A stretch of 35,482 bases of DNA, taken from NCBI GenBank assembly GCA_041184705.1, contig JBEGJG010000021.1, forward strand, positions 1-35,482. Direction: 5' to 3'. The translations under genes were made by a program, and so were the position numbers. Positions 1 to 28,464 of this stretch are shown here, in pieces (position 1 is the stretch's first letter; each line of letters begins with the position of its first letter). Under the pieces are notes generated by a model, which was given only the letters and a program-made list of their open reading frames with translations, was not told the DNA's origin and did not search any database. The DNA is from Candidatus Eiseniibacteriota bacterium. Lineage in GTDB: Bacteria > Eisenbacteria > RBG-16-71-46.

Positions 1-217
1 GAGGGACTCGATCGCGAGCGTTCGCGAGTCGGGATGCGACCGCTCACCCCTCCGCGTCGTGCAGGACGGCGCGATCGCACGCCACACCATGGTCGGGCCT
101 TCGCGCACGACCCGCGACGCGATCGGGACGGCTCGTTGCGATGGGACGGGGGGCACCCGCAGGCGACGCGACGCGCGACGACACCGCACCCCCGCGCGTC
201 GGGAACGGGACGGCTCA

Positions 218-239
218 CGCACCCGGGGGTCCGGGCGCG
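218..239 (-). terminator. candidate stem-loop 5 nt downstream of the response-regulator stop
   Basis: Minus-strand RNA reads CGCGCCCGG-ACCC-CCGGGUGCG: a 9-bp stem (one G.U) with a 4-nt loop. Only a weak U content follows, so function is uncertain. Confidence 0.3.
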
Positions 240-244
240 AGGCG

Positions 245-1645: not shown

Positions 1646-1649
1646 GGGG

Positions 1650-2819: not shown

Positions 2820-2931
2820 GGCCTCGTTCCTGCATGGGTAGCACACGCGCACGTGTACCCGCAATGCCCGAGTGCGTTCGAGGCGCATCCTGACGCGCGC
2901 TGCGAAGCCCTTCCCACGCGCGGCGCCGCGG

Positions 2932-2961
2932 TTGTGCCGGTGCGCGAGCCGCTGCTAGACT
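2932..2961 (+). promoter_or_regulatory. putative sigma70-type promoter of the ppiD-like gene
   Basis: TTGTGC (2932-2937), 18-nt spacer, TAGACT (2956-2961), about 55 nt upstream of ATG 3017. The same TAGACT -10 hexamer recurs at the folB-operon promoter candidate. Confidence 0.3.
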
Positions 2962-3016
2962 CGTCCCCCATTCCGCATCCCTCGTCACCCGATCAACCGC
3001 ACACCCGGGAGTCCCG

Positions 3017-4876: not shown

Positions 4877-4891
4877 CCCGAAGGAACGAAC

Positions 4892-4927
4892 GAGGCCCCC
4901 GGCGAGTGACCACTCGCCGGGGGCCTC
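4892..4927. terminator. strong bidirectional stem-loop between convergent ppiD-like and tatA
   Basis: GAGGCCCCCGGCGAGTG-AC-CACTCGCCGGGGGCCTC: a perfect 17-nt inverted repeat starting 16 nt after the ppiD-like stop. On the minus strand it is followed by GTTCGTTCCTT. Confidence 0.6.
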
Positions 4928-4978
4928 TCGCATATCCCCCTTCCCGCACCGCGCAAACGGAACGAGGGACCAAGCCAG

Positions 4979-5006
4979 CGGGGCGGCCCCGTGAGGGACC
5001 GCCCCG
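4979..5006 (-). terminator. second hairpin directly downstream of tatA
   Basis: CGGGGCGG - 12 nt - CCGCCCCG: an 8-bp perfect stem, 22 nt from the tatA stop codon. No clear U-tract. Confidence 0.3.
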
Positions 5007-5028
5007 TGGAGGTTCGGAACGCCGACCG

Positions 5029-5229
5029 TCACTCGGCCGACGACTTGTCCTTGTTCTTGGACGACGCGTGCGCCTCGTGCTCGAGCTCGTCGCCGATCTC
5101 GCGCTGCGCCTTCTTGAACTCGCGGATGGCCTGGCCGAAACCGCGCGCCATCTTGGGGATCTGGCTCGGACCGAAGAGCAACAGGATCACCAGCACGATG
5201 AGCATCACTTCCGTTCCGCCGAAATTCAC
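5029..5229 (-). CDS. tatA: twin-arginine translocase subunit TatA/E
   Basis: 66 aa. One TM helix followed by an amphipathic helix, with the hallmark LLLFGPSQIPKMARGFG. GTG start at 5229 preceded by GGAGGAA at 5-nt spacing. Confidence 0.9.
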   Translation of the reverse strand: MNFGGTEVMLIVLVILLLFGPSQIPKMARGFGQAIREFKKAQREIGDELEHEAHASSKNKDKSSAE

Positions 5230-5259
5230 GAGCTTCCTCCGAGTTTGAGGGCCCCGTCG

Positions 5260-5715
5260 TCAGGGGTCCAGCCGAAGCCGACTACGATCGCTTCCCACCA
5301 GTACCGAGACATCGGCCAATCCCGACGTCCACTCCTGACGCACGAGGGGGGCACCTCCCAGATAGTGCGACACTTCCCTCGCGAACGAAAGGTCGGACCG
5401 TCGCGCCACGATGAACGTTGCGAAATGATCGTTGCGATCCGCATTACGGACGTCCGTGACCTGGAATCCGCCCTCCCGCAGGTAGGCCGCGACGCGTGTT
5501 CCCACACCCGCCTCGCCCGACCCGTTCAGCACCTGCACGCGCACCACGCGACGGCCGCTGCGCCGCGCGCCGGGATCGCGCGCACCCACGAACGACCACA
5601 CCAGCGACACGGCGAGTGCTCCCACCGCGACGGCCAGCACCACGAACCCGACCCGGGCCAGCTTCCCGCCCTTAGCCACGACGGGTCCCCTTGCGGGTCG
5701 TGCGGCGGCGGGCAC
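5260..5715 (-). CDS. membrane-anchored LytR_C (LytR/CpsA/Psr C-terminal) domain protein
   Basis: N-terminal TM (VGFVVLAVAVGALAVSLVW), then VQVLNGSGEAGVGTRVAAYLREGGFQVTDVRNAD ... VSVLVGSD, the pattern I associate with LytR_C domains. Start is uncertain: GTG 5715 overlaps the HIT gene by 44 nt, and in-frame GTG 5679 overlaps it by 8 nt. Confidence 0.6.
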   Translation of the reverse strand: MPAAARPARGPVVAKGGKLARVGFVVLAVAVGALAVSLVWSFVGARDPGARRSGRRVVRVQVLNGSGEAGVGTRVAAYLREGGFQVTDVRNADRNDHFATFIVARRSDLSFAREVSHYLGGAPLVRQEWTSGLADVSVLVGSDRSRLRLDP

Positions 5716-6190
5716 GGCTCGCCTCCCCGCGCTCGAGTCGCGCGAGCGCGGTGCGCAGACGCGTCCACGTGTCGGCGAGCGACTCGGGCAGCACGCGGGT
5801 GTTCGCCACCGCGGGCATGAAGTTGGTGTCGCCGTTCCAGCGCGGCACGAGGTGCAGGTGCAGGTGCCCGGGGAAACCGGCGCCCGCCACCTTACCCACG
5901 TTGAGACCGTAGTTCACACCGTGCGGGGCGTACTCGGCCTCGAGCAGGTGCTCGGCCACCGCGGTCAGTTCGAGCAGGTCGGCGCGCTCCTCGGGCGACA
6001 GGTCGCGGAACTGCGCGGCGTGCCGGCGCACAGCCACCATGAGATGGGCGCTCGCGTAGGGGTAGCGGTTCAGCATGAGCACGGCGTGCGGACGACGCGC
6101 GAGCACGAGGTCCCGGCGATCGGCGGCGGCCGCCCCCACCCGGCAGAACAGGCAGCCCTGCGGGGCGTCGGCGCGCTTGAGCCAGCTCAT
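5672..6190 (-). CDS. HIT-family nucleotide hydrolase/transferase
   Basis: Track ORF 5672..6391. Histidine triad GHLHLHLVPRW, an upstream CLFC zinc-type motif, and NRYPY. Start set at ATG 6190 (MSWLKRAD...); the longer N-terminus is Arg/Ala-rich shadow sequence. Confidence 0.85.
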   Translation of the reverse strand: MSWLKRADAPQGCLFCRVGAAAADRRDLVLARRPHAVLMLNRYPYASAHLMVAVRRHAAQFRDLSPEERADLLELTAVAEHLLEAEYAPHGVNYGLNVGKVAGAGFPGHLHLHLVPRWNGDTNFMPAVANTRVLPESLADTWTRLRTALARLERGEASRARRRTTRKGTRRG

Positions 6191-6285
6191 GCGCCACGGC
6201 GCCCAGAGACGTGCCGGGCCCGAGGGCGTGGACGCGGTCGCGACCGCTCGGCGCGGACGACGCGCGGTCGTGCGACGAGCCGCGC

Positions 6286-7053
6286 TCAAGCCCCGTCCCC
6301 CGCCCGCATCGAGCGCCACACGCGCTCGGCCTCGGCCAACTGCTCGGGCGTGTTGATGCCCAGCAATTCCCGCGCATCCTCGGCGCACCACACCGCGGCC
6401 CGCGCCCCGCGCTCCTGCAGCAGCGACACGGTGTCGGTGAGGTAGTACTCGCCCTGCGAGTTGTTGGCGGTCAGCGACGACAGGATGCCCGAGAGCGCGG
6501 CGTGGTCGAACGCGTAGATGCCACTGTTGACCTCGTCGATCGCGCGCACCTCAGCGTCGGCGTCCTTCTCCTCGACGATGCGCTCGATGCCCTGCCCGTC
6601 GGCGGTGCGCACGATGCGCCCGTAGCCCTTGGGGTCGGCGAGCCGCATGGAGAGCACGGTGACCTGCGCGCCGGCGGCGGCGTGACGTTGGAGCAGCGCG
6701 TTCAACGTGACCGGCGAGAGCAGCGGCGTGTCGCCGCACACCACCAGCACGGTGCCGGTGAACCCGGCGATCGCGGGCTCGGCCATCATGCAGGCGTGGC
6801 CCGTCCCGCGCTGCTCGGCCTGCACCGCCCACTCCAAGGGACGATCGGCGAACGCCGCGCGCACGGCATCGCGCTGGTGGCCGACCACGACCACGGTGCG
6901 CGCCACGCCGAGCGTGTCGAGCGTGTCGAGAACGTGCCCGAGCAGCGGCTTGCCCGCCATGGGGTGCAGCACCTTGGCGAGGTCGCTGTTCATGCGCTTG
7001 CCCATACCGGCGGCGAGCACCACGGCGGCGGTATCGGGATGATGGAAGCTCAC
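6286..7053 (-). CDS. GlmU-like sugar-1-phosphate nucleotidyltransferase, N-terminal pyrophosphorylase domain only
   Basis: C-terminal 255 aa of track ORF 6286..7629. LAAGMGKRM nucleotide-binding signature, GDTPLL, EYYLTD. The protein ends after the Rossmann-like domain with no left-handed beta-helix acetyltransferase part. GTG start 7053 overlaps the panC stop as GTGA. Confidence 0.75.
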   Translation of the reverse strand: MSFHHPDTAAVVLAAGMGKRMNSDLAKVLHPMAGKPLLGHVLDTLDTLGVARTVVVVGHQRDAVRAAFADRPLEWAVQAEQRGTGHACMMAEPAIAGFTGTVLVVCGDTPLLSPVTLNALLQRHAAAGAQVTVLSMRLADPKGYGRIVRTADGQGIERIVEEKDADAEVRAIDEVNSGIYAFDHAALSGILSSLTANNSQGEYYLTDTVSLLQERGARAAVWCAEDARELLGINTPEQLAEAERVWRSMRAGDGA

Positions 7054-7934
7054 CGGCCCCTCCACGGCAGGTTGTCGATCAGGCGCGCCGGGCCCACACG
7101 GGCCGCGACCGCCACCAGGGCGGCCCCGCGCACGGTCCGCAGCGGGACGAGCGTGTCGGGGTCCACCACCACGATGTAATCCTCGTGCACGAGCGGGTAG
7201 CCCGCCCATTCGCGCCGGATCGCCGCCACCAGGCGCGACGAGCGCCGCTCGCCCTGACGCAGCAGCACGCGCGCGGCCGAGAGGCCCTGCGAAAGCGCGA
7301 CCGCCTGCTGGCGCTCGCTCGGTGACAGGTAGGCGTTGCGGCTCGACATGGCGAGCCCGTCGGGTTCGCGCACGGTGTCGCCGCGCAGGATGCGCACCGG
7401 CACCAGCAGATCGGCCGCCATGCGCTCCAGCACGAGCGCCTGCTGGGCGTCCTTCTGCCCCAACCACAGGTCGTCGGGCTGCACGGCGTTGAGCAGACGC
7501 ATGACCACGGTGCACACGCCGGTGTAGTGCCCGGGACGCGAGGCCCCCTCGAGCACGTCCGACAGCCCCGCCACGCTCACCCGCGTGCGATCGCCCGCCG
7601 GGTAGATGTCCTCGACGCGCGGCTCCCACAGCAGGTCCACACCTTCACGCGCCAGCAGGGCGCGGTCGCGCGAGGCGGGCCGCGGGTACTTGGTGAAGTC
7701 CTCCTTCGGCCCGAACTGCAGCGGGTTCACGAAGATGCTCACCACCACACGGTCGGCACGGCGACGTGCCGAGCGCACCAGCGACAGGTGCCCGTCGTGC
7801 AGCGCCCCCATGGTGGGCACGAACGCGACGCGTTCGCCGCGCGCACGCATGCGCTCCAGCGCGGAACGCAACTGCGGGACGGTGCGCACTCGGGCAAGGC
7901 GCTTCCGTGCGCTCGGGACCCGGCGTGCGGCCAT
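7050..7934 (-). CDS. panC: pantoate--beta-alanine ligase
   Basis: PTMGALHDGHLSLV (HIGH-like) and VSIFVNPLQFGPKEDF motifs. ATG 7934 overlaps the panB stop as TGATG; a TTG one codon upstream is also possible. Confidence 0.92.
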   Translation of the reverse strand: MAARRVPSARKRLARVRTVPQLRSALERMRARGERVAFVPTMGALHDGHLSLVRSARRRADRVVVSIFVNPLQFGPKEDFTKYPRPASRDRALLAREGVDLLWEPRVEDIYPAGDRTRVSVAGLSDVLEGASRPGHYTGVCTVVMRLLNAVQPDDLWLGQKDAQQALVLERMAADLLVPVRILRGDTVREPDGLAMSSRNAYLSPSERQQAVALSQGLSAARVLLRQGERRSSRLVAAIRREWAGYPLVHEDYIVVVDPDTLVPLRTVRGAALVAVAARVGPARLIDNLPWRGR

Positions 7935-8770
7935 CAATAACTCTCCGCGTCCGACGGGAACCGGCGCTCCTTCACGTCGGCGACGTAGCGCGCGTAGGCG
8001 TCGCGCATGACGTCCCCGACCTCGGCGTACCGCCGCACGAACTTCGGCGTACGACCGTGGAACAGCCCCATGAGGTCGTGCGAGACGAGCACCTGCCCGT
8101 CGCAGTGCACCCCGGCCCCGATGCCGATCGTGGGCACGTGCAGCTCGCGCGAGACCACGCCGCCGAGCTTGGCAGGGATCCCCTCGAGCACGATGGCGAA
8201 GCAGCCCGCGGCCTCGAGGGCGCGGGCGTCGGCGATGAGGCGCTCCTGATCGGCCTCGCCGCGGGCCTGCACCTTGTAGCCCCCGAACGCCAGCACCGAC
8301 TGGGGCGTGAGTCCGAGGTGGCCCATCACCGGGATGCCGGCCTCGACGATGCGTCGCGCGGCCTCGACCACGCGCGCCCCCCCTTCGAGCTTCACGGCGT
8401 CGGCGCCACCCTCCTGCACGAGACGACCGGCGTTGGTCACGGCCTGCTCGGGGCTCACCTGATAGCTCATGAACGGCATGTCGCCCACCACCATGGCCGA
8501 CGTGCGCGCACGCGCCACCGCCTTGGTGTGGTGCAGCATGTCGTCCATGGTGACCGGCAGCGTGCTGTCGTAGCCGAGCATCACGGTTCCGACCGAATCC
8601 CCGACCAGCAGGATCTCGACTCCGGCCTGGTCGGCGAGGCGCGCGGTCGGGAAGTCGTACGCGGTGACGACCGTGATCGGCTCACCCTTGCGCTTCAGCG
8701 CCACGACCGCCGGAGCGGTCACGCGGGCGCGCGCCCCCGTCGTGGAGGCCAGCTTGGGGTCGCTGTTCAC
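7934..8770 (-). CDS. panB: 3-methyl-2-oxobutanoate hydroxymethyltransferase
   Basis: C-terminal 278 aa of track ORF 7934..9082. TAYDFPTARL, LLVGDSVGTVMLGY, GDMPFMSY, GIGAG. GTG 8770 overlaps the upstream stop as GTGA. Confidence 0.92.
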   Translation of the reverse strand: MNSDPKLASTTGARARVTAPAVVALKRKGEPITVVTAYDFPTARLADQAGVEILLVGDSVGTVMLGYDSTLPVTMDDMLHHTKAVARARTSAMVVGDMPFMSYQVSPEQAVTNAGRLVQEGGADAVKLEGGARVVEAARRIVEAGIPVMGHLGLTPQSVLAFGGYKVQARGEADQERLIADARALEAAGCFAIVLEGIPAKLGGVVSRELHVPTIGIGAGVHCDGQVLVSHDLMGLFHGRTPKFVRRYAEVGDVMRDAYARYVADVKERRFPSDAESY

Positions 8771-9423
8771 GCGGGACCGCCTTTCTCGAGGGGCGTGTAG
8801 TAGAGCGTGCCCTGACGGTGCGACAGGATGCGCTTGAGCAGGTCCTCGAAGTCGTCGGGCTGGTGCACGAAGTCGATGTTGTTCGTGTTCACGACCAGCA
8901 GCGGCGAATCGTGGTAGTGGAAGAAGTAGTGGTTGTAGGCCTGGTTCAGACGCTCGATGTACTCGCGCTCCATGTCGCGCTCGAACGACCGGTTGCGATG
9001 ATGGATGCGCTCGAGCAGCGTGTCGGTGCTGGCCTGCAGGTACACGACCACGTCGGGCTTCACCACATCCAGTTCGAGCCAACCCACGAGTCGCTCGTAG
9101 AGCGCCATCTCCTGATCCTCGAGGTTGAGGCTCGCGAAGATGCGGTCCTTCTGGAACAGGTAGTCCGCGACCAGCTTGTCGCTGAAGAGGTCGGTCTGTC
9201 GCAGACCGCGCTGCTGCTGGTAGCGGCTGAACAGGAAGTGCATCTGGGTCTGGAACGCGTAGCGCGTGCGGTCGCGGTAGAAGTCCTTGAGGAACGGGTT
9301 CTCCTCGACCTCCTCGAGCACCAGTCGCGCCGAGAGACGCTCCGAGAGCAGGCGCGACAGGCTGGTCTTGCCCGCGCCGATCACGCCCTCGATGGCGAGG
9401 TAGCGGTTCTCGCCGACGCTCAC
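8767..9423 (-). CDS. deoxynucleoside kinase (dNK/dAK-dGK family)
   Basis: 218 aa. P-loop IEGVIGAGKTS, ENPFLKDFYRD ... AFQTQMHFL, and the LID-like HHRNRSFERD. GTG start. Confidence 0.8.
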   Translation of the reverse strand: MSVGENRYLAIEGVIGAGKTSLSRLLSERLSARLVLEEVEENPFLKDFYRDRTRYAFQTQMHFLFSRYQQQRGLRQTDLFSDKLVADYLFQKDRIFASLNLEDQEMALYERLVGWLELDVVKPDVVVYLQASTDTLLERIHHRNRSFERDMEREYIERLNQAYNHYFFHYHDSPLLVVNTNNIDFVHQPDDFEDLLKRILSHRQGTLYYTPLEKGGPA

Positions 9424-9483
9424 GCTCGCCCCCTCACCGCCGTCCCGTACCGTCCGTCCATGGACGCCATCCTCAGGGCCGCG

Positions 9484-9978
9484 TCAGTTCCAGAGCCGCG
9501 AACCGTGCTTCACGAGCGGACTCGCGCCGAGCCGCTGCAGCAGGCCCAGCATGGTCTCGCCCGCGACCGGGTGCACGAGCATCGGGTCCAGTTCGACGAG
9601 CGGCACCAGCACGAACGAGCGCTTGGTCATCTCGGGGTGCGGCAGCTGCAGCTCGGGATCGTCCGAGACCAGGTCCTCGTAGAGGAGCAGGTCGAGGTCG
9701 AGGGTGCGCGGGCCCCAACGGTTCGTGCGCACGCGGCCGAGGCGCTTCTCGATCAGCATGAGGTTCCACAGCAACTGGCGCGGCGTGAGCTGCGTCTCGA
9801 GCAGCGCGACCGCGTTGAGGAAGTTGGGCTGGTCGGCGACACCCATGGGCTCGGTGTCGTAGAGCGACGAGGCGCGCACCACGGTGGTGTCGGGCGTGCG
9901 CGCGAGATGCTCGAGCGCCTGGCGCACGTGCGCCTCGCGGTCGCCGAGGTTCGAGCCCAGTCCGATGTACGCCTTCAT
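9484..9978 (-). CDS. folK: 2-amino-4-hydroxy-6-hydroxymethyldihydropteridine diphosphokinase (HPPK)
   Basis: IGLGSNLGD ... NRWGPRTLDLDLLLY ... LPHPEM signatures. ATG 9978 overlaps the folB stop as ATGA. Confidence 0.92.
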   Translation of the reverse strand: MKAYIGLGSNLGDREAHVRQALEHLARTPDTTVVRASSLYDTEPMGVADQPNFLNAVALLETQLTPRQLLWNLMLIEKRLGRVRTNRWGPRTLDLDLLLYEDLVSDDPELQLPHPEMTKRSFVLVPLVELDPMLVHPVAGETMLGLLQRLGASPLVKHGSRLWN

Positions 9979-10364
9979 GAGGTCCGTTCCCGGACCACCT
10001 CGATGACCGCGCGGCCACCGGTGGTCCATCCGAGGTTCTGCTTGGCGATGCGGACCCTCACGCGTCGGATGGGGTGGCGCTCGAGGATGACGGCGGCCAC
10101 ACGGGCGGCCAGAGCCTCGAGCAGGTGGAAGCTCTCCCCCTCCACCACCTCACGCACGATCCGGTACAGCATGTCGTAATCCACGGCGTCGGTGAGCTTG
10201 TCGCTGACCTCGGCCCGGTCGTCGGTGGGCTCGAGTTCGAGGTCCACCTCGAGGCGCTGCCCCGCTTCCTTCTCGTAGGGGCGGGCGCCGTGGTGCCCGA
10301 ACACGGACAACCCTTCCAACCGGATGATGGCCAACTCGTTGCCTCCGAACGCGAACGGCCGCAA
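9975..10364 (-). CDS. folB: dihydroneopterin aldolase
   Basis: LEGLSVFGHHGARPYEKEAGQRLEVDLELE ... DYDMLY pattern. The track start is TTG 10364. An in-frame TTG at 10334 has a better SD (GGAGG, 7-nt spacing). Confidence 0.85.
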   Translation of the reverse strand: MRPFAFGGNELAIIRLEGLSVFGHHGARPYEKEAGQRLEVDLELEPTDDRAEVSDKLTDAVDYDMLYRIVREVVEGESFHLLEALAARVAAVILERHPIRRVRVRIAKQNLGWTTGGRAVIEVVRERTS

Positions 10365-10395
10365 GCCTCATGCCGGCGACCCTCGTGGTGAGCGG

Positions 10396-10424
10396 AGTCT
10401 AGGACCGCCCCCCGGGGGGGTCAA
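10396..10424 (-). promoter_or_regulatory. putative sigma70-type promoter of the folB-...-tatA operon
   Basis: Minus strand: TTGACC (10424-10419), 17-nt spacer, TAGACT (10401-10396), about 30 nt upstream of the folB start. This is the best-fitting -35/-10 pair in the window. Confidence 0.45.
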
Positions 10425-10464
10425 GGAATCGTGCCGCGAACCCCTTGGGACAATCGGATTCGTG

Positions 10465-10504
10465 CAGTGTGGGCCATCCCCCGTGCTGCCGGGTACCCAC
10501 ACTG
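10465..10504 (-). terminator. stem-loop between dapD and the folB promoter
   Basis: CAGTGTGGG (10465-10473) and CCCACACTG (10496-10504): a 9-bp perfect inverted repeat with a 22-nt loop, 57 nt downstream of the dapD stop. No U-tract. Confidence 0.3.
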
Positions 10505-10560
10505 AACCCATTCGCACGGTGGTCCCGCCCCGAGGCGACACCGCACGCCCGAAGCGGTCC

Positions 10561-11415
10561 CTAGACGGCGACCCCGAACTCGCGCAGCGCGTCGTTGAGG
10601 CTGGTCTTGGTGTCGGTGCTCGCCTTGCGACGACCGATGACGAGCGCGCACGGCACGCCGAACTCACCCGCCGGGAAGCGCTTGGGGCGAGTGCCGGGGA
10701 TGACCACGCTGTCGGGCGGCACGTAGCCGCGGCTCTCGACCGGCGTCGGACCCGTCACGTCCACGATGACCGTGCTGGCGGTGAGCACCACGCCCGCCCC
10801 GAGCACCGCGCGAGCACCCACGCGCACACCCTCGACCACGATCGCGCGCGAACCGATGAACGCGTCGTCCTCGATGATGACCGGCGCGGCCTGCGGCGGC
10901 TCGAGCACGCCCCCGATCCCCACACCACCCGAGAGGTGCACACGGCGCCCGACCTGCGCGCACGAGCCCACCGTGGCCCACGTGTCCACCATGGTGCCCT
11001 CGCCCACGCGCGCGCCGATGTTGACGTAGCCCGGCATGAGGATGACGCCCTTCTCGAGGAAGCTGCCGTAGCGCGCCACACCGGGCGGCACCACGCGCAC
11101 GCCCGCGGCCTCGAGGTTCGCCTTGGGCGGCACCTTGTCGAAGAACGACAGGTCGCCCGCGACCATCGTGCGACTCACGTGCATGCGGAAGTAGAGCAGG
11201 ATGGCCTGCTTGAGCCACGCGTGCGTGACCCACTCCCCGCCTTCGGCCGCAGGCGGCGAGCACACGCGCAGGTCCCCGGCGTCGAGTGCGGCGACCGCAC
11301 CCTCGACCGCGCCGCGCAGCTCCGCGTCGTCGAGCCCCCGCGTGCCCGCGAAGCCCTCGCCGATCGTGCGCTCCCAACGCTCCAGCGGATAGGTGTCGGG
11401 GGTCGTGCCGCTCAT
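10561..11415 (-). CDS. dapD: 2,3,4,5-tetrahydropyridine-2,6-dicarboxylate N-succinyltransferase
   Basis: C-terminal 284 aa of track ORF 10561..12666. Hexapeptide-repeat (LbH) core (GYVNIGARVGEGTMVDTWATVGSCAQVG ... GGVGIGGVLEP). Sits next to dapC and dapE. ATG 11415 overlaps the dapC stop as ATGA. Confidence 0.88.
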   Translation of the reverse strand: MSGTTPDTYPLERWERTIGEGFAGTRGLDDAELRGAVEGAVAALDAGDLRVCSPPAAEGGEWVTHAWLKQAILLYFRMHVSRTMVAGDLSFFDKVPPKANLEAAGVRVVPPGVARYGSFLEKGVILMPGYVNIGARVGEGTMVDTWATVGSCAQVGRRVHLSGGVGIGGVLEPPQAAPVIIEDDAFIGSRAIVVEGVRVGARAVLGAGVVLTASTVIVDVTGPTPVESRGYVPPDSVVIPGTRPKRFPAGEFGVPCALVIGRRKASTDTKTSLNDALREFGVAV

Positions 11416-12587
11416 GCGTGCACCTCCGCGAGACGAGTTAGACGCGCGATCGCCTCCTCGCACTGCGCCTGCGTGGGCACGAGCGCCCAACGCACGAACC
11501 CCTCGCCCCCGGGCCCGAGGAACGAACCCGGCGTGGTCACGATGCCGAGCCGTAGCAGCGACTCGACGAACGCCACGTCGTCGCCGCCCGGGGCGCGCAT
11601 CCACAGGTAGAACGTGGCCTGCGAGGCCTCCACGGTCCATCCCCGACGCGCGAACTCGGCCATGAACAGCCGCCGCTTGGCGCCGTACACCTCGCGCGTC
11701 GCGGGTGTGTGCGCGTCGTCGTTCCACGCCGCGATGGCGGCGTCCTGGATGAAGTCCGGGGTGGCGTTGCCCAGGCTGGGGCGGAACTTCTTGAGCGCAT
11801 CCATGAGGCGCGGGTCGCCCGCCATGAACCCCGAGCGATAGCCCGTCATGGCCGATCGCTTGGAGAGCGTCCACATGCCGATGAGGTTCTCGAGCCCGTG
11901 CACGAGCAGCGTGCCGGGCCGCTCGCCCTCGAACCACAGGTCGCTGTACGCCTCGTCGCTCGCGATCCAGAAGCCCTGCTCGCGCGCCATGCGCACGAGC
12001 CGCTCGCCGGTCGCGGCGTCGAGCACCGAGCCCGTGGGGTTGTGCGGCGAGTTGAGCCACAGCAACGCGGTGCGCGCCCAGACGTCGGCGGGCACGCGAT
12101 CGGGGTTGAAGCACCAGCCGTCCTCGCTGCGCAGCGGGACGAAGTACGGCGTCGCACCCGCGAAGCGCGCCCCGCTCTCGTACACGGGGTACGCGGGCGT
12201 GGGGATGATCACCACGTCGCGCTTCGCGCCGGGGCCGATCAACGCGAACGCGAGCGAGTACACCGCCTCCTTGGTGCCGTTGGCGGGCAGCACGTGGCGC
12301 TCGGGGTCCACGGTGAGGCCGTAGCGGCGCTGCAACCACGCGGCGCACGCGGCGCGCAGTTCGGGCTTGCCGTTGGTGGCCGGGTAGCTCGAGACCGCGG
12401 GCACCGCGGCCTTGAGCCTGTCGCGGATGAACGCCGGCGTCTCCTCGCGCGGGTCCCCCATGCCGAAGTTGATCGGCGCGAGGTCGGGCGGCGCCAACTC
12501 GCGGCGGCGGCGTTCGAGCTTCACGAACGGGTACTCCTCGTTCGTGGTGAGCAGCGGGTGCAACGGCCCCGGCACGAAGGCGGTCAT
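11412..12587 (-). CDS. dapC: succinyldiaminopimelate aminotransferase (class I/II PLP aminotransferase)
   Basis: C-terminal 391 aa of track ORF 11412..13727. NSPHNPTG, SDEAYSDL, and the PLP lysine in LSKRSAMTGYRSG. Operon context between dapE and dapD. ATG 12587 overlaps the dapE stop as ATGA. Confidence 0.8.
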   Translation of the reverse strand: MTAFVPGPLHPLLTTNEEYPFVKLERRRRELAPPDLAPINFGMGDPREETPAFIRDRLKAAVPAVSSYPATNGKPELRAACAAWLQRRYGLTVDPERHVLPANGTKEAVYSLAFALIGPGAKRDVVIIPTPAYPVYESGARFAGATPYFVPLRSEDGWCFNPDRVPADVWARTALLWLNSPHNPTGSVLDAATGERLVRMAREQGFWIASDEAYSDLWFEGERPGTLLVHGLENLIGMWTLSKRSAMTGYRSGFMAGDPRLMDALKKFRPSLGNATPDFIQDAAIAAWNDDAHTPATREVYGAKRRLFMAEFARRGWTVEASQATFYLWMRAPGGDDVAFVESLLRLGIVTTPGSFLGPGGEGFVRWALVPTQAQCEEAIARLTRLAEVHA

Positions 12588-13657
12588 GCGGACTCCCGGG
12601 TGAGGAACGTGGACAGGTGGTCGTACACCGACTTGAGGTTCGGGATCGGGCAGTACTCGTCGGCACGATGGCAGAGGTCGGGGATGCCGGGCCCGAAGTT
12701 GAACGCCGGGATGCCCGCCTCGGTGAAACGCGCGACGTCGGTCCAGCCCTGCTTGCCCGCGACCGAGGCGCCGGTCTGGCGCAGGAAGCGCTGCACGATG
12801 GCGTCGTCCATGCACAGCCGTCCCGGCGGCGCCTGGTCCACCACCTCGAACCCGAACCCCTCGGGCACGAGCGCGCGCACGCGGGCGATGGCCTCGTCGG
12901 TGGTGCGGTCCGGCGGGAAACGATGGTTGAGGTTCACGACCATCTCGGCGGGCACCACGTTGCGTGCGGTTCCTGCCGAGAGCTTCGTGACCTGCAGCGT
13001 CTCGCGGAACTCCATGCCGTGGAGCACGTGAGTGAGGGTCTCGAAGCGCGTGATGTCCCCGAGCCATGCCGCGCCCTCGGCCACCGCGTTGCGCCCCTTC
13101 CACGGCCGTGCGGCGTGCGCCGCCACGCCGGGCACGCGCACCTCGACGTTCAGGATGCCGTTGCAGCCCATCTCGACCGCGCCGTCGGTGGGCTCGAGCA
13201 GAATGGCGAGTGCGGCGTCGCGCAACCACGGCGACTCGCGCAGCACTCGCTTGAGCCCGTTGCGCTCGGCCGGCCCCTCCTCGGCGTCGTAGAACACGCA
13301 CGCGACGTCGAACGGCATGGCGTCGAGGTCGAGGTGCGAGGCGAGCGCCAGCATGACCGCGTCGCCCGCCTTCATGTCGGTGGTGCCGAGCCCGTAGAGG
13401 CGGTCGCCCTCGCGGCGCGCGCGGGCGTTGTCCTGCGGCGGCACGGTGTCGGTGTGCCCGGCCAGCACCACGAGGGGGCGGCCCTTGCGCGGCGCGCGCC
13501 AGACCACGGACAAGCCGTGGCGGATGACCTCGCCGCGGCTCTCCGAGGCGAGTCGGCGGGTGACGAGGTCGGCGATCGCCTGCTCGTCGCCCGTCACGCT
13601 GGGCGTGTCCACCAGTTGCACGAGCAGCTCGACGAGCGTTTCGGAGGTGACGGGCAT
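12584..13657 (-). CDS. dapE: succinyl-diaminopimelate desuccinylase (M20 peptidase family)
   Basis: 357 aa. LVDTPSVTGDE, LAGHTDTVP, and YDAEEG metal-ligand motifs. First gene of the dapE-dapC-dapD string. Confidence 0.85.
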   Translation of the reverse strand: MPVTSETLVELLVQLVDTPSVTGDEQAIADLVTRRLASESRGEVIRHGLSVVWRAPRKGRPLVVLAGHTDTVPPQDNARARREGDRLYGLGTTDMKAGDAVMLALASHLDLDAMPFDVACVFYDAEEGPAERNGLKRVLRESPWLRDAALAILLEPTDGAVEMGCNGILNVEVRVPGVAAHAARPWKGRNAVAEGAAWLGDITRFETLTHVLHGMEFRETLQVTKLSAGTARNVVPAEMVVNLNHRFPPDRTTDEAIARVRALVPEGFGFEVVDQAPPGRLCMDDAIVQRFLRQTGASVAGKQGWTDVARFTEAGIPAFNFGPGIPDLCHRADEYCPIPNLKSVYDHLSTFLTRESA

Positions 13658-14557: not shown

Positions 14558-16143
14558 TCAGGCCGCCGGCTTCTCGCCGTCGTCCACCACCAGCGCGTCG
14601 GTGGTGAGCACCACGCTCGCGAGCGAACCCGCGTGCAGCAGCGCGCAGCGCACCACCTTGGCGGGATCCACGATCCCGGCGCGGTCCAGTTCCACCAGCC
14701 CGCCCGAGAGCGCGTCGAACCCCGTCCACTCCCCACCCGCGCGCACGCGTTGCAGCACGCTCGCGGCGTCGGCGCCCGCGTTGGCCGCGATCCACCACGC
14801 CGGTGCGGCGAGCGCGGCGGCGACCGCGTCGCGGCCGGGACGGTCGAGCGGTCGAACGTCGAGCGCGGAGACCGCATCCACCAGACGCAGCAATCCCGCG
14901 CCACCGCCGGGCACCAGGCCCTCCTCGAGGGCCGCCTGCGTGGCCCCGAGCGCGTCCTCGACCTGCGCACGGCGCGCCTCGCGCTCGGGCCCCGCGGGCC
15001 CGCCCACGCGCAGCACCGCGACGCGACCCGCCAGTCGAGCGCGACGATCGTCGTCGCAATCGGCGAGCGCGGCCCGCACCTGCTCGGTGCGTCCACCGCC
15101 GCCGGTCACCGTGGTGACTTCAGCGTTCGCGCACGCGCGCACGGCACGACCGAGGTGCGCGGACGTGACCGCGGTGGGAGCGATCCCCGTGCCGTAGCCG
15201 AGCAGCGTGGCGCCGGTGACGAGGGCCAGATCCTCGAGCCACGCGCGGCGCTCGGTCGGCGTGCCGGGCATGCGCACGGCGAGCCCCGGCGCGGTGCCGC
15301 GCAGACGGTTCACCACCAGCACCGCGAGCGCATCGGTGGACAGGTCCTCGCACACGCCAGCACCGCGAGCGCATCGGTGGACAGGTCCTCGCACACGCAC
15401 AGCAACGGACGGTTCTGACGCGCGGCGATCTCGAGCGCGGGCACGATCTCGGCGGGACGCGTGAGCACGCCGTCCACCACCAGCACGAGCGGGCGGTCGA
15501 GGGCCACCTCCATGTCCTCGTCGGCATCGTTGACGAAGTAGGGCGAGGCGTAGCCCGAGGGCAGGCGCAGCCCGTCCACCACCTCGAGCACGAGCCCGTG
15601 ACCCGAACCCTCCTCCACGGTCACCACGCCGTCGGGACCGACCTCGGCGATGGCGCGCGCGATCGCGTCGCCCACCTCGGCGTCGCCGCTCGTGAGCGTG
15701 GCGACGTGCGCCAGGTCGCGCTCGTCCTCGACCGGACGCGCGAGCCGCGCGAGCTCCTGCAACGCCGCGGCGACCGCGGTCTCGACGCCGCGCCGCACCG
15801 CGACCGGGTTGCCGCCCGCGCGCACCGCCGCGAAGCCGTCCCCCACGATGCGATGCGCGATCACGGTGGCGGTGGTGGTGCCGTCGCCGGCTTCCGCACC
15901 GGTGCGCTGCGCGACCTCGCGCAGCATGTGCACGCCCATGTTCTCGAACGGATCGGGCAGCTCGAGTTCCTGCGCGACCGCGATGCCGTCGCGCGTGATG
16001 GTGGGCAGGTGGCCCTGCGCTCGATCCAGCACCACGCTGCGGCCACGCGGCCCGAGCGTGATGCGCACGGCGCTCGCCAACTGGTCGATCCCCCGCCACA
16101 ACGACTGGCGGGCGTCCTCGTCGAACCGGACGCGCTTGCCCAT
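14558..16143 (-). pseudogene. groEL: divergent GroEL/Cpn60 paralogue, reading frame broken by a 41-bp tandem duplication
   Basis: The N-terminal part lies in track ORF 15310..16224: MGKRVRFDEDAR ... ITRDGIAVAQELEL ... AGDGTTTATV ... PLLCVCEDLSTDALAVL. The C-terminal part lies in another frame, ORF 14558..16198: VVNRLRG ... VPGGGAGLL ... DPAKVVRCALLHAGSLASVVLTTDALVV. ATG 16143 is preceded by GGGAGG. Deleting one 41-bp repeat copy joins the two halves into a 514-aa ORF. Confidence 0.85.
15316..15398. repeat. perfect 41-bp tandem duplication (2 copies plus 1 nt)
   Basis: ccagcaccgcgagcgcatcggtggacaggtcctcgcacacg occurs at 15316-15356 and again at 15357-15397. The match extends to c15398. 41 is not a multiple of 3. 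Confidence 0.97.
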
Positions 16144-16267
16144 GTGGACGTGCCTCCCTGCGCGCCCACGATGCGCACCGTCCGGCCGGACCGGGCACCG
16201 CGGGGTCCCGAGGGGTATCGGCACCCCGGGGCGCGCGGTTCAGCGGTTCGCGGCGGGCCGCCCCGAC

Positions 16268-24563: not shown

Positions 24564-24890
24564 CTAGGCGGAGGGCTTGCCGTACGCGCGTTCGACGCGC
24601 GCGATGCGCAGGCGGTAGTCCGCGTACCACGTGCTGCGCCCGGTCTCCTGCGCGACGCGGTGCTCGGCGTGCGATCGCCACGCGGCGATGGCGTCCTCGC
24701 TCGTCCAGTACGAGACCGTGATCCCGAGCCCGTCGGCCCCGCGCGCGCTCTCGACCCCGAGGAACCCCGGCTGCTCCGCCGCCAGTTCCATCATGCGCTC
24801 GGCCATGCGCGCGTAGCCCTGATCCCCATCCGTGCGAAGCGAGGTGAAGACGACGGCGTAATAAGGGGGCTCTGGGGTGCGGGCGAGCAT
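24564..24890 (-). CDS. antibiotic-biosynthesis-monooxygenase (ABM/Dabb) domain protein
   Basis: About 108 aa. YYAVVFTS ... GFLGVES ... ITVSYWTSEDAIAAWRSHAEH pattern. ATG 24890 preceded by GAGGTGG. High GC, so host-like. Confidence 0.7.
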   Translation of the reverse strand: MLARTPEPPYYAVVFTSLRTDGDQGYARMAERMMELAAEQPGFLGVESARGADGLGITVSYWTSEDAIAAWRSHAEHRVAQETGRSTWYADYRLRIARVERAYGKPSA

Positions 24891-25064
24891 GACTAGCGCC
24901 ACCTCTCTTCGCGAGCACAACAGCCTGCAAGCTCAACAACAGCTAGGGGCACGCACCTGCGGCAATTCATCAGCATGCCAGACACGCGGCAAGCAACTTA
25001 ACTTAGGCCGCATCCACGCGCAATTACAGCCAATCAACCGCACTGCCTCGCGAATACGAAGCAC

Positions 25065-25982
25065 CTAGCGCTTGCGAAGCGATTCAACCAGCAGCTCCCT
25101 ATCAATCAATCCGTCGTACATCTCTCGCCGCACTTCACGACTTTTCATATCCATCCTAATGCGCCGAAGAAATGCACAAAAATCAGGGTTTACACTTGCC
25201 AACTTATTTACGGCCTCCCAGTCAACAACCTCTCTTGCCTTAGCCGGATAAACGATCTCGCTGGAATCAGGGTCGCCTATGTCAATGCGAATGACCCCGA
25301 TGCCAAACGACGCCGACAGGCGATTGAGTTCGCCCCTGAATTCTTCATCCACGTCAATGTCAACGGCCGCAAGATATCCTTCATTAGCCCATGAAGAATT
25401 GGATACGGCCTGAAAGAAGGCCTCTCGCAGATTGCCAATCGACAACTCACGCTTTAGCTCAAAGGAGTAGAGCTTGATGGCGGGATTGCCCATCACTGAA
25501 CTGACCTCAACAACTTCGTCTTCCCAATCATCAAACGGGAAATAGCATCCCACAAGATCCGGGTGCACCCACTCACCAAATCGCTTCTTCTCAGACTTGT
25601 GATGTCGAATCGTCTTTAGGTGTGCCCTAAGGTAGTAGAATCCAAAGTAGACAAGAAACGGATGAATGTCTTTTTCGAGATAACCAGCTACTTTTTCAGT
25701 CGCTGGCGACTGAATGTCCAGAATCCCTTTGTCTTGATCAAGAAGCTCACGCAACACAAACCTCTTTGGGGCTTTCCCTGTTGATACAAAGTCGGACATG
25801 GGATTATCACGAACATCCACATACAGCATCGCACCAAGGGTGGCCCACGGCGTCTTGCCCTTGGTCGCAAGGTCTTTTTCATAGCCCTTAGCTTGGGCCA
25901 TTCCCCAGATTTCGGGAGCAGACAAAGGGCGCTTTTCTTCCTTAAGCACCTTGTGAGCTAACTGCAGAAACATGCTTGGCAT
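25065..25982 (-). CDS. HARE-HTH + PD-(D/E)xK nuclease-fold protein (orphan restriction-endonuclease-like)
   Basis: 305-aa intact ORF. Residues about 5-80 match the HARE-HTH pattern (LAHKVLKEEKRPLSAPEIWGMA ... KTPWATLGAMLYVDVRD ... KRFVLREL). The C-terminal half has the ordered nuclease motifs E103 (YLEKD), P141-D142 (WVHPDLVG), E175-x-K177 (LYSFELK) and Q191 (FFQAVSN). A/T-rich codon usage. Confidence 0.75.
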   Translation of the reverse strand: MPSMFLQLAHKVLKEEKRPLSAPEIWGMAQAKGYEKDLATKGKTPWATLGAMLYVDVRDNPMSDFVSTGKAPKRFVLRELLDQDKGILDIQSPATEKVAGYLEKDIHPFLVYFGFYYLRAHLKTIRHHKSEKKRFGEWVHPDLVGCYFPFDDWEDEVVEVSSVMGNPAIKLYSFELKRELSIGNLREAFFQAVSNSSWANEGYLAAVDIDVDEEFRGELNRLSASFGIGVIRIDIGDPDSSEIVYPAKAREVVDWEAVNKLASVNPDFCAFLRRIRMDMKSREVRREMYDGLIDRELLVESLRKR

Positions 25983-26068
25983 TAGACTTGGCCTCGGGAA
26001 GGTTTAAGGTTACAGGTGACTATATGAAGTTTGACGAGTGAGGCGCACAGACGCAAGCGTATCTTCAT
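25982..26068 (-). CDS. hypothetical 28-aa upstream ORF whose stop overlaps the nuclease start (TAATG)
   Basis: ATG 26068 ... TAA 25984-25982, encoding MKIRLRLCASLVKLHIVTCNLKPSRGQV. No convincing SD, too short for composition tests, and may be spurious. Confidence 0.15.
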   Translation of the reverse strand: MKIRLRLCASLVKLHIVTCNLKPSRGQV

Positions 26069-26288
26069 GATGACGAGTGCCGCTCAGTCGCAAGACGACA
26101 CAAATCTATCTCCGCATGTCATTCACTGATCTTCATGACAGGCCCATAGACCGATGGCGCTATCTTCTTACGAAACACGCCTCTCAGAAGTGTGGGGCTA
26201 AGAGCCAACCCACGCCTGATGCTATGCGCCCCCACCCTTTCCAAACCTCCGCTTGACCTTGCGAGGCTCTCGTCCCGGTGAGACTCGG

Positions 26289-28361
<2,073 letters not shown>

Positions 28362-28427
28362 GGGACCCGAAACTACCACGCCACCCCGCGGGCGCGGGCG
28401 GGCGGATCCCTCCCCCGCTAGACCGAA

Positions 28428-28464
28428 CCGCCCGCCGTCGGGCACGGGGCGGGACGGCGGGCGG
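28428..28464 (-). terminator. stem-loop downstream of the DUF4139-like gene, upstream of uvrB
   Basis: CCGCCCGCCGTC (28428-28439) and GACGGCGGGCGG (28453-28464): a 12-bp perfect inverted repeat with a 13-nt loop. On the minus strand it is followed by TTCGGTCT. Confidence 0.45.

What the first reader, a model, noticed from the sequence alone, without database searches (positions are those of the whole stretch)
25065..25982. Orphan HARE-HTH + PD-(D/E)xK nuclease: candidate single-gene, modification-sensing restriction/defence module
**Seen in sequence**
- An intact 305-aa ORF with foreign composition.
- The N-terminal ~80 aa fit the HARE-HTH (HB1/ASXL/restriction-endonuclease HTH) pattern: LAHKVLKEEKRPLSAPEIWGMA ... 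KTPWATLGAMLYVDVRD ... KRFVLREL.
- The C-terminal half carries nuclease core motifs in canonical order: E103, P141-D142, E175-x-K177, Q191.

**Established knowledge**
- PD-(D/E)xK is the classical restriction-endonuclease catalytic fold.
- HARE-HTH domains fused to endonuclease domains have been proposed, from comparative genomics, to read modified DNA.

**Inference**
- No cognate methyltransferase, specificity subunit, ATPase or helicase lies within the island or next to it.
- The protein would therefore have to act alone. It could be a type IV-like (modification-dependent) enzyme or a self-contained anti-phage effector.
- I vaguely associate this architecture with poorly characterised HrgA/COG2958-type proteins but cannot verify that here.
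- To my knowledge no experimentally defined activity exists for this fusion.
Basis: partly seen in the sequence, partly recalled or inferred. Interest (0 to 1): 0.85.

Follow-up and report, generated by a model that had tools for sequence, protein, structure and literature searches.

The report
Solo HrgA-family HARE-HTH nuclease gene
A single foreign gene inserted between housekeeping genes encodes a DNA-reader domain fused to a restriction-type nuclease; it belongs to the large, long-described HrgA/COG2958 family, whose activity nobody has measured, so it is a correct call but not a new kind of system.

Summary
ORF 25065-25982 (-) is intact, 305 aa, and is the only gene in a ~1.35 kb insert of 49% G+C in a 72% G+C genome.

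- **Domains:** Residues 6-79 match Pfam HARE-HTH (E 2.7e-13). E103, D142, E175, K177 and Q191 are invariant in 64 diverse homologues. In a confident AlphaFold model (pLDDT 91.7) they sit on the canonical PD-(D/E)xK elements.
- **Family:** It belongs to HrgA/COG2958 (formerly DUF511). That family was predicted in 2010-2012 to be winged-helix + PD-(D/E)xK.
- **Spread:** The family is huge: 6,293 clusters at 90% identity and at least 593 species, including Archaea. It is patchily distributed, usually lower in G+C than its host, and has no conserved neighbour.
- **Defence catalogues:** It matches no PADLOC model and shows no detectable relation to Mrr.
- **Selection:** A ~96%-identical relative carries the same insert at the same site, with gene dN/dS ~0.1, so the gene is being maintained.
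- **Activity:** I found no report of a measured activity.

Most likely it is a stand-alone restriction nuclease resembling type IV (modification-dependent) enzymes. That mechanism is inferred, not shown. Verdict: a new member of a known but uncharacterised family; moderate interest.

The parts
24900..26260 (.). Low-G+C insert of about 1.35 kb, with approximate boundaries. It carries one gene and lies between a native ABM-monooxygenase-like gene (24564-24920, -) and uvrB (26289-28445, -).
   Evidence: G+C in 100-nt windows drops from 0.67-0.78 to 0.40-0.57 and back. Gene GC3 is 0.53 against 0.90-0.96 in the neighbours. The same insert at the same site is present in a 95.8%-identical contig, L173. 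No tRNA, Rfam match or convincing terminal repeats were found.
25065..25982 (-). Intact 305-aa ORF: a HrgA/COG2958-family protein (HARE-HTH + PD-(D/E)xK nuclease). The stop codon is 25065-25067.
   Evidence: dN/dS is about 0.10 against the orthologue in L173.
25992..25995 (-). Possible Shine-Dalgarno sequence GAGG, 9 nt upstream of the ATG.
   Evidence: Read directly from the sequence; inference only. No sigma-70-like promoter was found by the consensus scan.
25746..25967 (-). HARE-HTH domain, residues 6-79: a winged helix with the extra short helix between H2 and H3.
   Evidence: Pfam PF05066, E 2.7e-13. 64 of 65 family members hit the same model. The AlphaFold model gives H2-16, H22-32, H34-37, H45-59 and hairpin E65-68/E74-77. 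Foldseek gives weak winged-helix (Z-alpha) matches.
25683..25730 (-). Variable, low-confidence linker, residues about 85-100.
   Evidence: pLDDT is below 50 for residues 88-95. The region is poorly conserved and prone to indels in alignments.
25245..25682 (-). PD-(D/E)xK nuclease core, residues about 101-246. Key codons: E103 (25674-25676), P141-D142 (25557-25562), E175 (25458-25460), K177 (25452-25454), Q191 (25410-25412).
   Evidence: These columns are invariant in 64 diverse homologues and in HrgA. The model order is helix 103-118, strand 121-124, strand 143-147 preceded by D142, strand 170-180 carrying E175-x-K177, helix 185-196 carrying Q191, strand 201-209. Foldseek against BFVD gives 5 hits at E 1.3e-5 to 8.4e-4, including an MmcB-like repair nuclease. 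The top PDB hits are restriction-fold enzymes but are not significant.
25068..25244 (-). C-terminal helical extension, residues 247-305, conserved within the family. Role unknown; possibly dimerisation or DNA contacts.
   Evidence: Helices 255-264, 266-281 and 295-304 at high pLDDT. D254, W255, N259, K260, N265, D267 and F268 are invariant among close homologues, and N265 is nearly invariant family-wide.

Best explanation
**Identity (about 0.95 sure)**
- The gene encodes a member of the HrgA/COG2958 family (formerly Pfam DUF511).
- It was acquired horizontally as a one-gene insert and has been kept under purifying selection.

**Mechanism (about 0.45 sure; inferred, not shown)**
- It acts alone as a DNA endonuclease that restricts incoming DNA, in the manner of a type IV (modification-dependent) enzyme.
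- The N-terminal HARE-HTH winged helix, on a flexible linker, binds duplex DNA and discriminates a base modification or other foreign mark.
- This positions the C-terminal PD-(D/E)xK domain. There E103, D142 and E175 would hold Mg2+ and K177 would activate water to cut the backbone.
- Two active sites are needed for a double-strand break, so the protein probably works as a dimer, perhaps through the conserved C-terminal helices.
- Host DNA escapes because it lacks the recognised mark, so no cognate methyltransferase is needed.
For: **Shown here**
- HARE-HTH is above the Pfam cut-off.
- The catalytic residues are invariant across the family and sit on the canonical secondary-structure elements of a pLDDT 91.7 model.
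- Significant fold matches include an MmcB-like nuclease (E 8.4e-4); a viral protein annotated as a restriction endonuclease matches at E 7.3e-3.
- Homologues are named HrgA or COG2958.
- No partner gene is conserved in 67 loci.
- Gene G+C is lower than the flanks in nearly all of 68 loci, median -0.076.
- At least 593 species across more than 15 bacterial phyla and several archaeal lineages carry it, at 42-66% identity, which implies frequent transfer.
- A minority of loci sit beside type I/IIG/III restriction-modification, HepT or AriA genes. The excess over uvrB control loci is weak.
- Longer variants carry a duplicated HARE-HTH.
- dN/dS is about 0.1 in situ.

**From the literature**
- In H. 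pylori, hrgA and the restriction gene hpyIIIR are mutually exclusive at one locus (PMC3045609).
- HARE-HTH fused to REase domains is predicted to discriminate modified DNA (PMC4738411, PMC10853773).
- Purified ASXL1 HARE-HTH pulled down 6mA-containing DNA (PMC6591016).
Against: - No nuclease activity, phage resistance or modification dependence has been reported for any family member in the literature I could search.
- PADLOC has no hit for the family, and no PADLOC type IV model matches.
- Profile comparison with Mrr is null, probability 0.2.
- About 90% of the loci examined show no adjacent defence or restriction-modification gene. Close homologues lie among metabolic genes.
- Fold matches to solved restriction enzymes are not significant; the best is E 0.017.
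- What HARE-HTH reads is disputed: 6mA or modified cytosine (PMC11037411).
- In RNA polymerase delta the related domain is not known as a modification reader (my own knowledge).
- In H. pylori, HrgA sits next to a GATC methylase (M.HpyIII) that is inactive in only some hrgA strains (PMC3045609). That family member therefore cannot simply be GATC-6mA-dependent.
Confidence: 0.5

Rival explanations
1. A repair, recombination or structure-specific nuclease. In this reading the PD-(D/E)xK domain processes damaged or branched DNA, like MmcB, NucS or RecB-type nucleases. The HARE-HTH would merely tether it to DNA or to RNA polymerase.
For: - One of the five significant fold matches is a viral protein annotated as an MmcB-like DNA repair protein; the other four are unannotated. 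NucS appears among the weak PDB hits.
- The gene lies next to uvrB here.
- Most homologues sit in housekeeping surroundings.
- The HARE-HTH is weakly similar to RNA polymerase delta models.
Against: - Distribution is patchy and driven by transfer, with foreign G+C. That is not the pattern of a core repair gene.
- No repair gene recurs as a neighbour. MutY appears in 3 of 67 loci, 5-6 genes away.
- uvrB adjacency is seen only in this lineage.
Confidence: 0.15
2. An orphan sequence-specific (type II-like) endonuclease or nickase that attacks unmodified sites. Protection would come from a methyltransferase encoded elsewhere, or activity would be kept low by tight regulation.
For: - The catalytic core is a restriction-type fold; the weak top PDB matches are type II enzymes (Ecl18kI, FokI, SgrAI).
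- A few homologues sit directly beside methyltransferases, for example on the C. butyricum megaplasmid and next to type IIG genes.
- hrgA sits next to hpyIIIM in H. pylori (PMC3045609).
Against: - A methyltransferase is adjacent in at most about 9% of 67 loci, and none lies beside this gene.
- Unprotected type II activity would be lethal after each of the many transfers.
- M.HpyIII is inactive in some hrgA-positive strains (PMC3045609).
Confidence: 0.12
3. A selfish mobile nuclease gene (homing-like). The nuclease would cut empty sites and the gene would spread by repair-mediated copying, which would explain one-gene inserts in unrelated places.
For: - The insert carries exactly one gene, with no integrase, transposase or tRNA.
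- The family has an extremely wide and patchy distribution at varied sites.
- hrgA exchanges with hpyIIIR by homologous recombination (PMC3045609).
Against: - No conserved target site, terminal repeats or intron/intein context was found.
- Insertion sites differ between lineages.
- dN/dS of about 0.1 after vertical inheritance suggests a benefit to the host, but is also compatible with selfish maintenance.
- No empty-site relative was available for comparison.
Confidence: 0.08
4. A DNA-binding regulator with a degenerate, non-catalytic nuclease fold. Automatic annotation of homologues implies this (HTH domain-containing protein, GO terms for transcription regulation).
For: Annotation of the C. 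butyricum homologue. The only Pfam domain recognised is an HTH.
Against: E103, D142, E175, K177 and Q191 are invariant across the whole family. That argues for retained catalysis.
Confidence: 0.03

Closest known systems
HrgA of Helicobacter pylori / Cj1602 of Campylobacter jejuni (COG2958; former Pfam DUF511, PF04373)
   Same: Homologous over the full length: 31% identity, E 7e-38, to a Helicobacter plasmid protein annotated HrgA. All eight family-invariant residues are shared. Length is similar (305 against about 310-325 aa). The predicted architecture is the same: winged helix + PD-(D/E)xK (PMC3045609).
   Different: This protein belongs to a much more conserved subgroup, 60-71% identical across Chloroflexota, Planctomycetota, Cyanobacteria and others. 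That subgroup clearly matches Pfam HARE-HTH, whereas the Helicobacter protein does not reach that model. The gene here is not next to a methyltransferase and does not replace a restriction gene.
EcoKMrr (type IV methyl-directed restriction enzyme)
   Same: It works like this candidate in outline: about 304 aa, an N-terminal winged-helix DNA reader plus a C-terminal PD-(D/E)xK-type catalytic domain, encoded as a solitary gene with no methyltransferase (Pfam domains).
   Different: No detectable homology: BLASTP E 0.95 and hhalign probability 0.2. No hit to Mrr_N or Mrr_cat. The reader domain is HARE-HTH, not Mrr_N.
DpnI / HhiV4I-type winged-helix fusion endonucleases (6mA-dependent type IV enzymes; PMC11037411)
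   Same: A single polypeptide joins a winged-helix modification sensor to a restriction-fold nuclease. It acts without a methyltransferase.
   Different: In those enzymes the winged helix is a classical wH shown to read 6mApT. HARE-HTH has an extra helix, and its ligand is unproven (PMC11037411). I did not test homology of the nuclease domains.
HARE-HTH + REase effectors next to Dnd phosphorothioation and BREX systems (PMC10853773, PMC12839542)
   Same: The same domain combination, and the same predicted role of discriminating modified DNA.
   Different: Those are embedded in multi-gene systems. No Dnd or BREX model is among the top PADLOC families for immediate neighbours of this family, and this gene is solitary. 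I did not test whether they belong to the same nuclease family.

Membership tests
HrgA / COG2958 (ex-DUF511) | Full-length sequence homology to proteins named HrgA or COG2958 | tested here: met
   tblastn against Helicobacter plasmid genes annotated HrgA gives 31% identity over residues 1-303, E 7e-38. Proteus, Vibrio and Shewanella HrgA match at 36-38% over the nuclease half. P0113, named 'COG2958 family protein', is 63% identical over 100% of the query.
HrgA / COG2958 (ex-DUF511) | N-terminal winged helix plus a C-terminal domain with all three PD-(D/E)xK motifs, about 310-320 aa (PMC3045609) | tested here: met
   The protein is 305 aa.
HrgA / COG2958 (ex-DUF511) | Match to Pfam PF04373 | not testable with these tools
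   Neither this protein nor the Helicobacter HrgA hits any such model in the Pfam copy at hand. The model appears to have been retired.
HARE-HTH (PF05066) | Score above the Pfam gathering cut-off | tested here: met
   50.5 bits against 25.9, covering residues 6-79 and profile positions 4-70 of 71.
PD-(D/E)xK nuclease superfamily | Conserved E ... PD ... (D/E)xK ... Q placed on an alpha-beta-beta-beta-alpha-beta core | tested here: met
   The residues are invariant. The model places E103 on helix 103-118, D142 at the start of strand 143-147, E175-x-K177 on strand 170-180 and Q191 on helix 185-196.
PD-(D/E)xK nuclease superfamily | Significant structural similarity to known members | tested here: inconclusive
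   PDB: the top hits are Ecl18kI, NucC, FokI, NucS and SgrAI, but the best E is 0.017 and TM is 0.3 or less for the whole two-domain model. BFVD: 5 hits at E 1.3e-5 to 8.4e-4 with probability 1.0, including an MmcB-like protein, but these are predicted structures annotated by name only.
PD-(D/E)xK nuclease superfamily | Metal-dependent phosphodiester cleavage | not testable with these tools
   Needs biochemistry.
Type IV (modification-dependent) restriction enzymes | No cognate methyltransferase required or encoded alongside | tested here: met
   None in or beside the insert. An adjacent methyltransferase is found in at most about 9% of 67 homologous loci.
Type IV (modification-dependent) restriction enzymes | Cleaves only modified DNA | not testable with these tools
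   Needs in-vitro or in-vivo assays.
Type IV (modification-dependent) restriction enzymes | Homology to an established type IV family (Mrr, or the PADLOC mREase_IV models) | tested here: not met
   PADLOC gives no hit. Comparison with Mrr gives hhalign probability 0.2.
Catalogued anti-phage defence systems (PADLOC-DB 2.0) | Match to any defence-protein model | tested here: not met
   No hits for the protein. Only 4 stray weak hits (E 0.002 or worse) among 65 family members.
Catalogued anti-phage defence systems (PADLOC-DB 2.0) | Enrichment in defence islands | tested here: inconclusive
   Restriction-modification components lie within 5 kb in 6 of 69 loci against 0 of 54 uvrB control loci, Fisher p about 0.03; the control is not matched for taxonomy. 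Immediate neighbours hit 211 PADLOC models against 64 for genes 4.5-7 kb away, but the count is inflated by redundant models. Most loci look like housekeeping regions.

The most novel reading that the evidence does not exclude
The HrgA/COG2958 family as a whole may be an uncatalogued, very widespread single-gene immune nuclease. It comprises thousands of clusters in at least 593 species, from Bacteria to Asgard and ANME archaea. Its HARE-HTH would read a DNA modification and license cutting by the PD-(D/E)xK domain. If so, it would be a new type IV restriction family. It would also give the first direct biochemical handle on what the HARE-HTH domain, shared with human ASXL1-3, actually recognises.
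Probability: 0.4. Interest if true: 0.6.

Novelty: new member of a known kind. Interest (0 to 1): 0.35.

Why it matters
The family is large, strongly conserved, horizontally mobile and still has no measured activity more than 20 years after hrgA was named.

A clean, compact, single-gene member such as this one is a practical entry point for two questions:
- Is HrgA/COG2958 a restriction or defence nuclease that current defence catalogues miss?
- What DNA feature does a HARE-HTH domain read? That question also bears on the human ASXL proteins.

For this genome alone, the finding is an ordinary horizontally acquired accessory gene.

Tried and rejected
1. **Sequence searches of solved structures.** Neither the protein nor the 64-sequence profile gave a hit at E <= 10.
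2. **First AlphaFold run.** With 25 close homologues the model was poor: pLDDT 65, with residues 122-169 unresolved. It was replaced by the 64-sequence run.
3. **Foldseek against the PDB.** Only non-significant restriction-fold hits.
4. **NCBIfam and PADLOC.** No family model. Pfam has no model for the nuclease half.
5. **E. coli genomes and phage records.** No homologue.
6. **Relation to Mrr.** Rejected.
7. **A bioRxiv hit for 'DUF511'.** It turned out to be DUF5112.
8. **Search for an empty ABM-uvrB site.**
   - The two closest uvrB relatives (82% and 80% identity) end inside uvrB.
   - The rest are 63% identical or less and are not syntenic.
   - The insert boundaries therefore remain approximate.
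9. **Terminal repeats, tRNA, Rfam, promoter scan.**
   - Nothing convincing was found.
   - The 15-nt imperfect inverted repeat (24894-24908 / 26148-26162) is at chance level for a region of this size.
10. **Conserved neighbour search.** The only recurrent neighbour clusters are generic: PAS kinases, response regulators, HepT, HsdR, MutY, PBP and sigma factors.
11. **Papers not available.** The original HARE-HTH paper (PMC3272235) and the hrgA evolution paper (PMC141823) are not held. Their content is cited only through papers that quote them.
Full report
**1. The observation**

The window holds an intact ATG-initiated ORF of 305 aa at 25065..25982 on the minus strand. It lies in the only strongly deviant stretch of the 35 kb window.
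- In 100-nt windows, G+C falls from 0.67-0.78 to 0.40-0.57 between about 24900 and 26260, then returns.
- Gene G+C is 0.49 against 0.72 for the rest of the window.
- GC3 is 0.53, against 0.90, 0.95 and 0.96 for the neighbouring ABM-like gene, nadC and uvrB.

The insert contains this one gene plus about 165 nt downstream and about 280 nt upstream. It has no tRNA, no Rfam match and no convincing terminal repeats. A GAGG lies 9 nt before the ATG. The consensus scan found no sigma-70-like promoter.

The neighbours are native housekeeping genes:
- On one side: an ABM monooxygenase-like gene, nadC, birA and tatC.
- On the other: uvrB and a DUF4139/DUF4140 gene.

**2. Domains**

*HARE-HTH.* Pfam HARE-HTH (PF05066) matches residues 6-79 at E 2.7e-13, well above the gathering score. 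No Pfam, NCBIfam or PADLOC model covers the C-terminal two-thirds. Sequence searches of the PDB find nothing.

*Conserved residues.* An alignment of 64 homologues with members down to 32% identity has only eight invariant columns: E103, W138, D142, E175, K177, Q191, W198 and L222. P141 and the S194-N195-S196-S197 run are at least 90% conserved.

*Structure model.* A model built on that alignment is confident: mean pLDDT 91.7, pTM 0.70.
- The N-terminus is a winged helix with the short extra helix typical of HARE-HTH: H2-16, H22-32, H34-37, H45-59 and hairpin 65-68/74-77.
- A disordered linker covers residues 88-95.
- The core then runs helix 103-118 (E103), strand 121-124, strand 143-147 (preceded by P141-D142), strand 170-180 (E175-x-K177), helix 185-196 (Q191) and strand 201-209. 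This is the canonical PD-(D/E)xK order.
- Three conserved helices (255-304) follow.

*Fold searches.*
- Against the PDB, Foldseek gives only non-significant hits. The top ones are restriction-fold enzymes: Ecl18kI at E 0.017, then NucC, FokI, NucS and SgrAI.
- Against predicted viral structures there are five significant hits (E 1.3e-5 to 8.4e-4, 158-226 aligned columns). One is annotated MmcB-like DNA repair protein. A protein annotated as a restriction endonuclease follows at E 7.3e-3.

I therefore regard the nuclease fold as well supported by motif, topology and literature, and only moderately supported by structure search.

**3. Family**

- The protein has 6,293 homologous clusters at 90% identity and 1,502 representatives at 50% identity. 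Almost all have the same length and architecture.
- Source names include 'COG2958 family protein' (P0113, 63% identical) and 'HTH domain-containing protein'.
- In plasmid records, the Helicobacter, Proteus, Vibrio and Shewanella homologues are annotated 'HrgA protein'. A Helicobacter one aligns over residues 1-303 at 31% identity, E 7e-38, and keeps all eight invariant residues.
- Laganeckas et al. 2010 (PMC3045609) already described DUF511/HrgA as an N-terminal winged helix plus a PD-(D/E)xK domain with all three motifs, typically 310-320 aa.
- Steczkiewicz et al. 2012 (PMC3424549) list DUF511/PF04373/COG2958 in the PD-(D/E)XK superfamily, function unknown.
- The Pfam copy at hand no longer has that model.

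**4. Distribution and context**

The best 80 span more than 15 bacterial phyla. They also include Archaea (an Asgard Atabeyarchaeia chromosome, ANME-1/Methanophagaceae, Archaeoglobaceae, Halobacteriota) at 42-66% identity to this protein.

*Composition.* In nearly all of 68 loci longer than 6 kb the gene is lower in G+C than its flanks; the median difference is -0.076.

*Neighbours.*
- No neighbour is conserved. Clustering 774 flanking ORFs from 67 loci gives only generic recurrent families: PAS kinases, response regulators, HepT (4 loci), HsdR (3 loci), MutY, PBP and sigma factors.
- Among 108 immediate neighbours, the commonest PADLOC and Pfam hits are type IIG enzymes (4), ResIII (4), mad8 (3), type III, AriA, YhcG, HepT and Eco57I (2 each), and EcoRV (1).
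- Genes 4.5-7 kb away also hit some type I and type IV models.
- Using E. coli and Clostridium restriction-modification proteins as phmmer queries, 6 of 69 family loci have a hit within 5 kb against 0 of 54 uvrB-centred control loci. Fisher p is about 0.03, and the control is not matched for taxonomy.
- Four close homologues that I inspected with precomputed Pfam annotation sit among metabolic or housekeeping genes.
- A 51%-identical copy on a Clostridium butyricum megaplasmid lies directly beside two methyltransferases, a restriction endonuclease, and WYL and AAA genes.

*Other points.* The family is absent from the phage collection and from E. coli genomes. Longer variants carry two HARE-HTH copies.

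**5. This copy is maintained**

- A Logan contig from another run (L173) is 95.8% identical to window 24831-26320. It covers both junctions, so a related strain has the same insert at the same site.
- Within the gene there are 24 nucleotide differences, 18 of them at third positions, and 6 amino-acid changes. dN/dS is about 0.10.
- A second contig (L003) is identical to 24807-26299.
- I could not find an empty site. The closest uvrB relatives in the metagenome collection end inside uvrB.

**6. Mechanism**

*What is shown:* a reader-type winged helix tethered to a nuclease core whose catalytic residues are invariant; stand-alone genetics; mobile, patchy distribution; purifying selection.

*What is inferred:* the protein cuts DNA, the HARE-HTH selects the substrate, and host DNA is spared because it lacks the recognised mark (type IV logic).

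Literature support is indirect:
- HARE-HTH is repeatedly fused to REase and N6-adenine methylase domains and is predicted to discriminate modified bases (PMC4738411; PMC3417536; PMC10853773; PMC12839542).
- The ASXL1 HARE-HTH pulled down 6mA DNA in one study (PMC6591016).
- Others consider cytosine modifications more likely (PMC11037411).
- In H. pylori, hrgA and hpyIIIR are mutually exclusive at the hpyIII locus. The adjacent GATC methylase is inactive in some hrgA strains, which argued against HrgA being a simple replacement GATC enzyme (PMC3045609).

I found no paper reporting an activity or phenotype beyond clinical association studies.

The functionally closest characterised enzyme is Mrr: about 304 aa, a winged helix plus a PD-(D/E)xK-type domain, and solitary. 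There is no detectable homology to it.

**7. Rivals**

The alternatives are a repair or structure-specific nuclease, an orphan type II-like enzyme, a selfish homing-like gene, and a non-catalytic regulator. They are weighed in the rival-explanations section. None fits the combination of invariant catalytic residues, solitary genetics and rampant transfer as well as the main explanation. None is excluded without biochemistry.

**8. Verdict**

This is a new member of a known, uncharacterised family. Interest is moderate (0.35). It would not surprise a specialist, but it offers a tractable single-gene route to two open questions: the function of HrgA/COG2958 and the ligand of HARE-HTH.

Noticed in passing
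window 26368-26429 (inside the 3' end of uvrB, 26289-28445 -): An exact 31-nt tandem duplication shifts the frame inside the UVR motif. As assembled, the protein ends '...[22 protein letters not shown]...'. With one copy removed it reads the canonical '...[22 protein letters not shown]...' and stops at 26222-26224, inside the low-G+C insert. The length of 31 nt looks like a de Bruijn k-mer size, so this is probably an assembly artefact. If real, uvrB's C-terminal domain is disrupted.
   Followed up: partly
window 15316-15397: A second exact tandem duplication, 41 nt, lies inside long ORFs at 14558-16198 (-) and 15310-16224 (-). Together with the 31-nt case it suggests stitching artefacts in the assembly.
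   Followed up: no
L173 (Logan SRR31724231) against window 24831-26320; L003 (Logan SRR30127161) against window 24807-26299: Short-read contigs from two other runs carry the same insert. One is identical and one is 95.8% identical with both junctions. Both contigs break close to the G+C transitions.
   Followed up: yes
L021 (CP147779.1, Atabeyarchaeia chromosome), L040, L052 (ANME-1), L034 (Archaeoglobaceae), L024 (Halobacteriota): Archaeal genomes, including an Asgard chromosome, encode family members 50-55% identical to this bacterial protein. This implies inter-domain transfer.
   Followed up: no
P0146, P0164, P0205, P0208, P0217 (family variants of 391-549 aa): Longer family members carry two tandem HARE-HTH copies ahead of the nuclease domain. 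P0167 and P0168 have unannotated C-terminal extensions of about 130 aa.
   Followed up: partly
L002 (C. butyricum megaplasmid NZ_CP033248.1) 1-12879: A 51%-identical homologue sits in what looks like a defence island. It has WYL and AAA ATPase genes upstream, and two DNA methyltransferases and a restriction endonuclease downstream.
   Followed up: no
L004 762-2572 (MAG CAYSIV010000012.1): An AAA_15/AAA_21 ATPase gene followed by a DUF4276 gene, a candidate two-gene defence-like pair, lies about 5.5 kb upstream of the 71%-identical homologue P0002.
   Followed up: no
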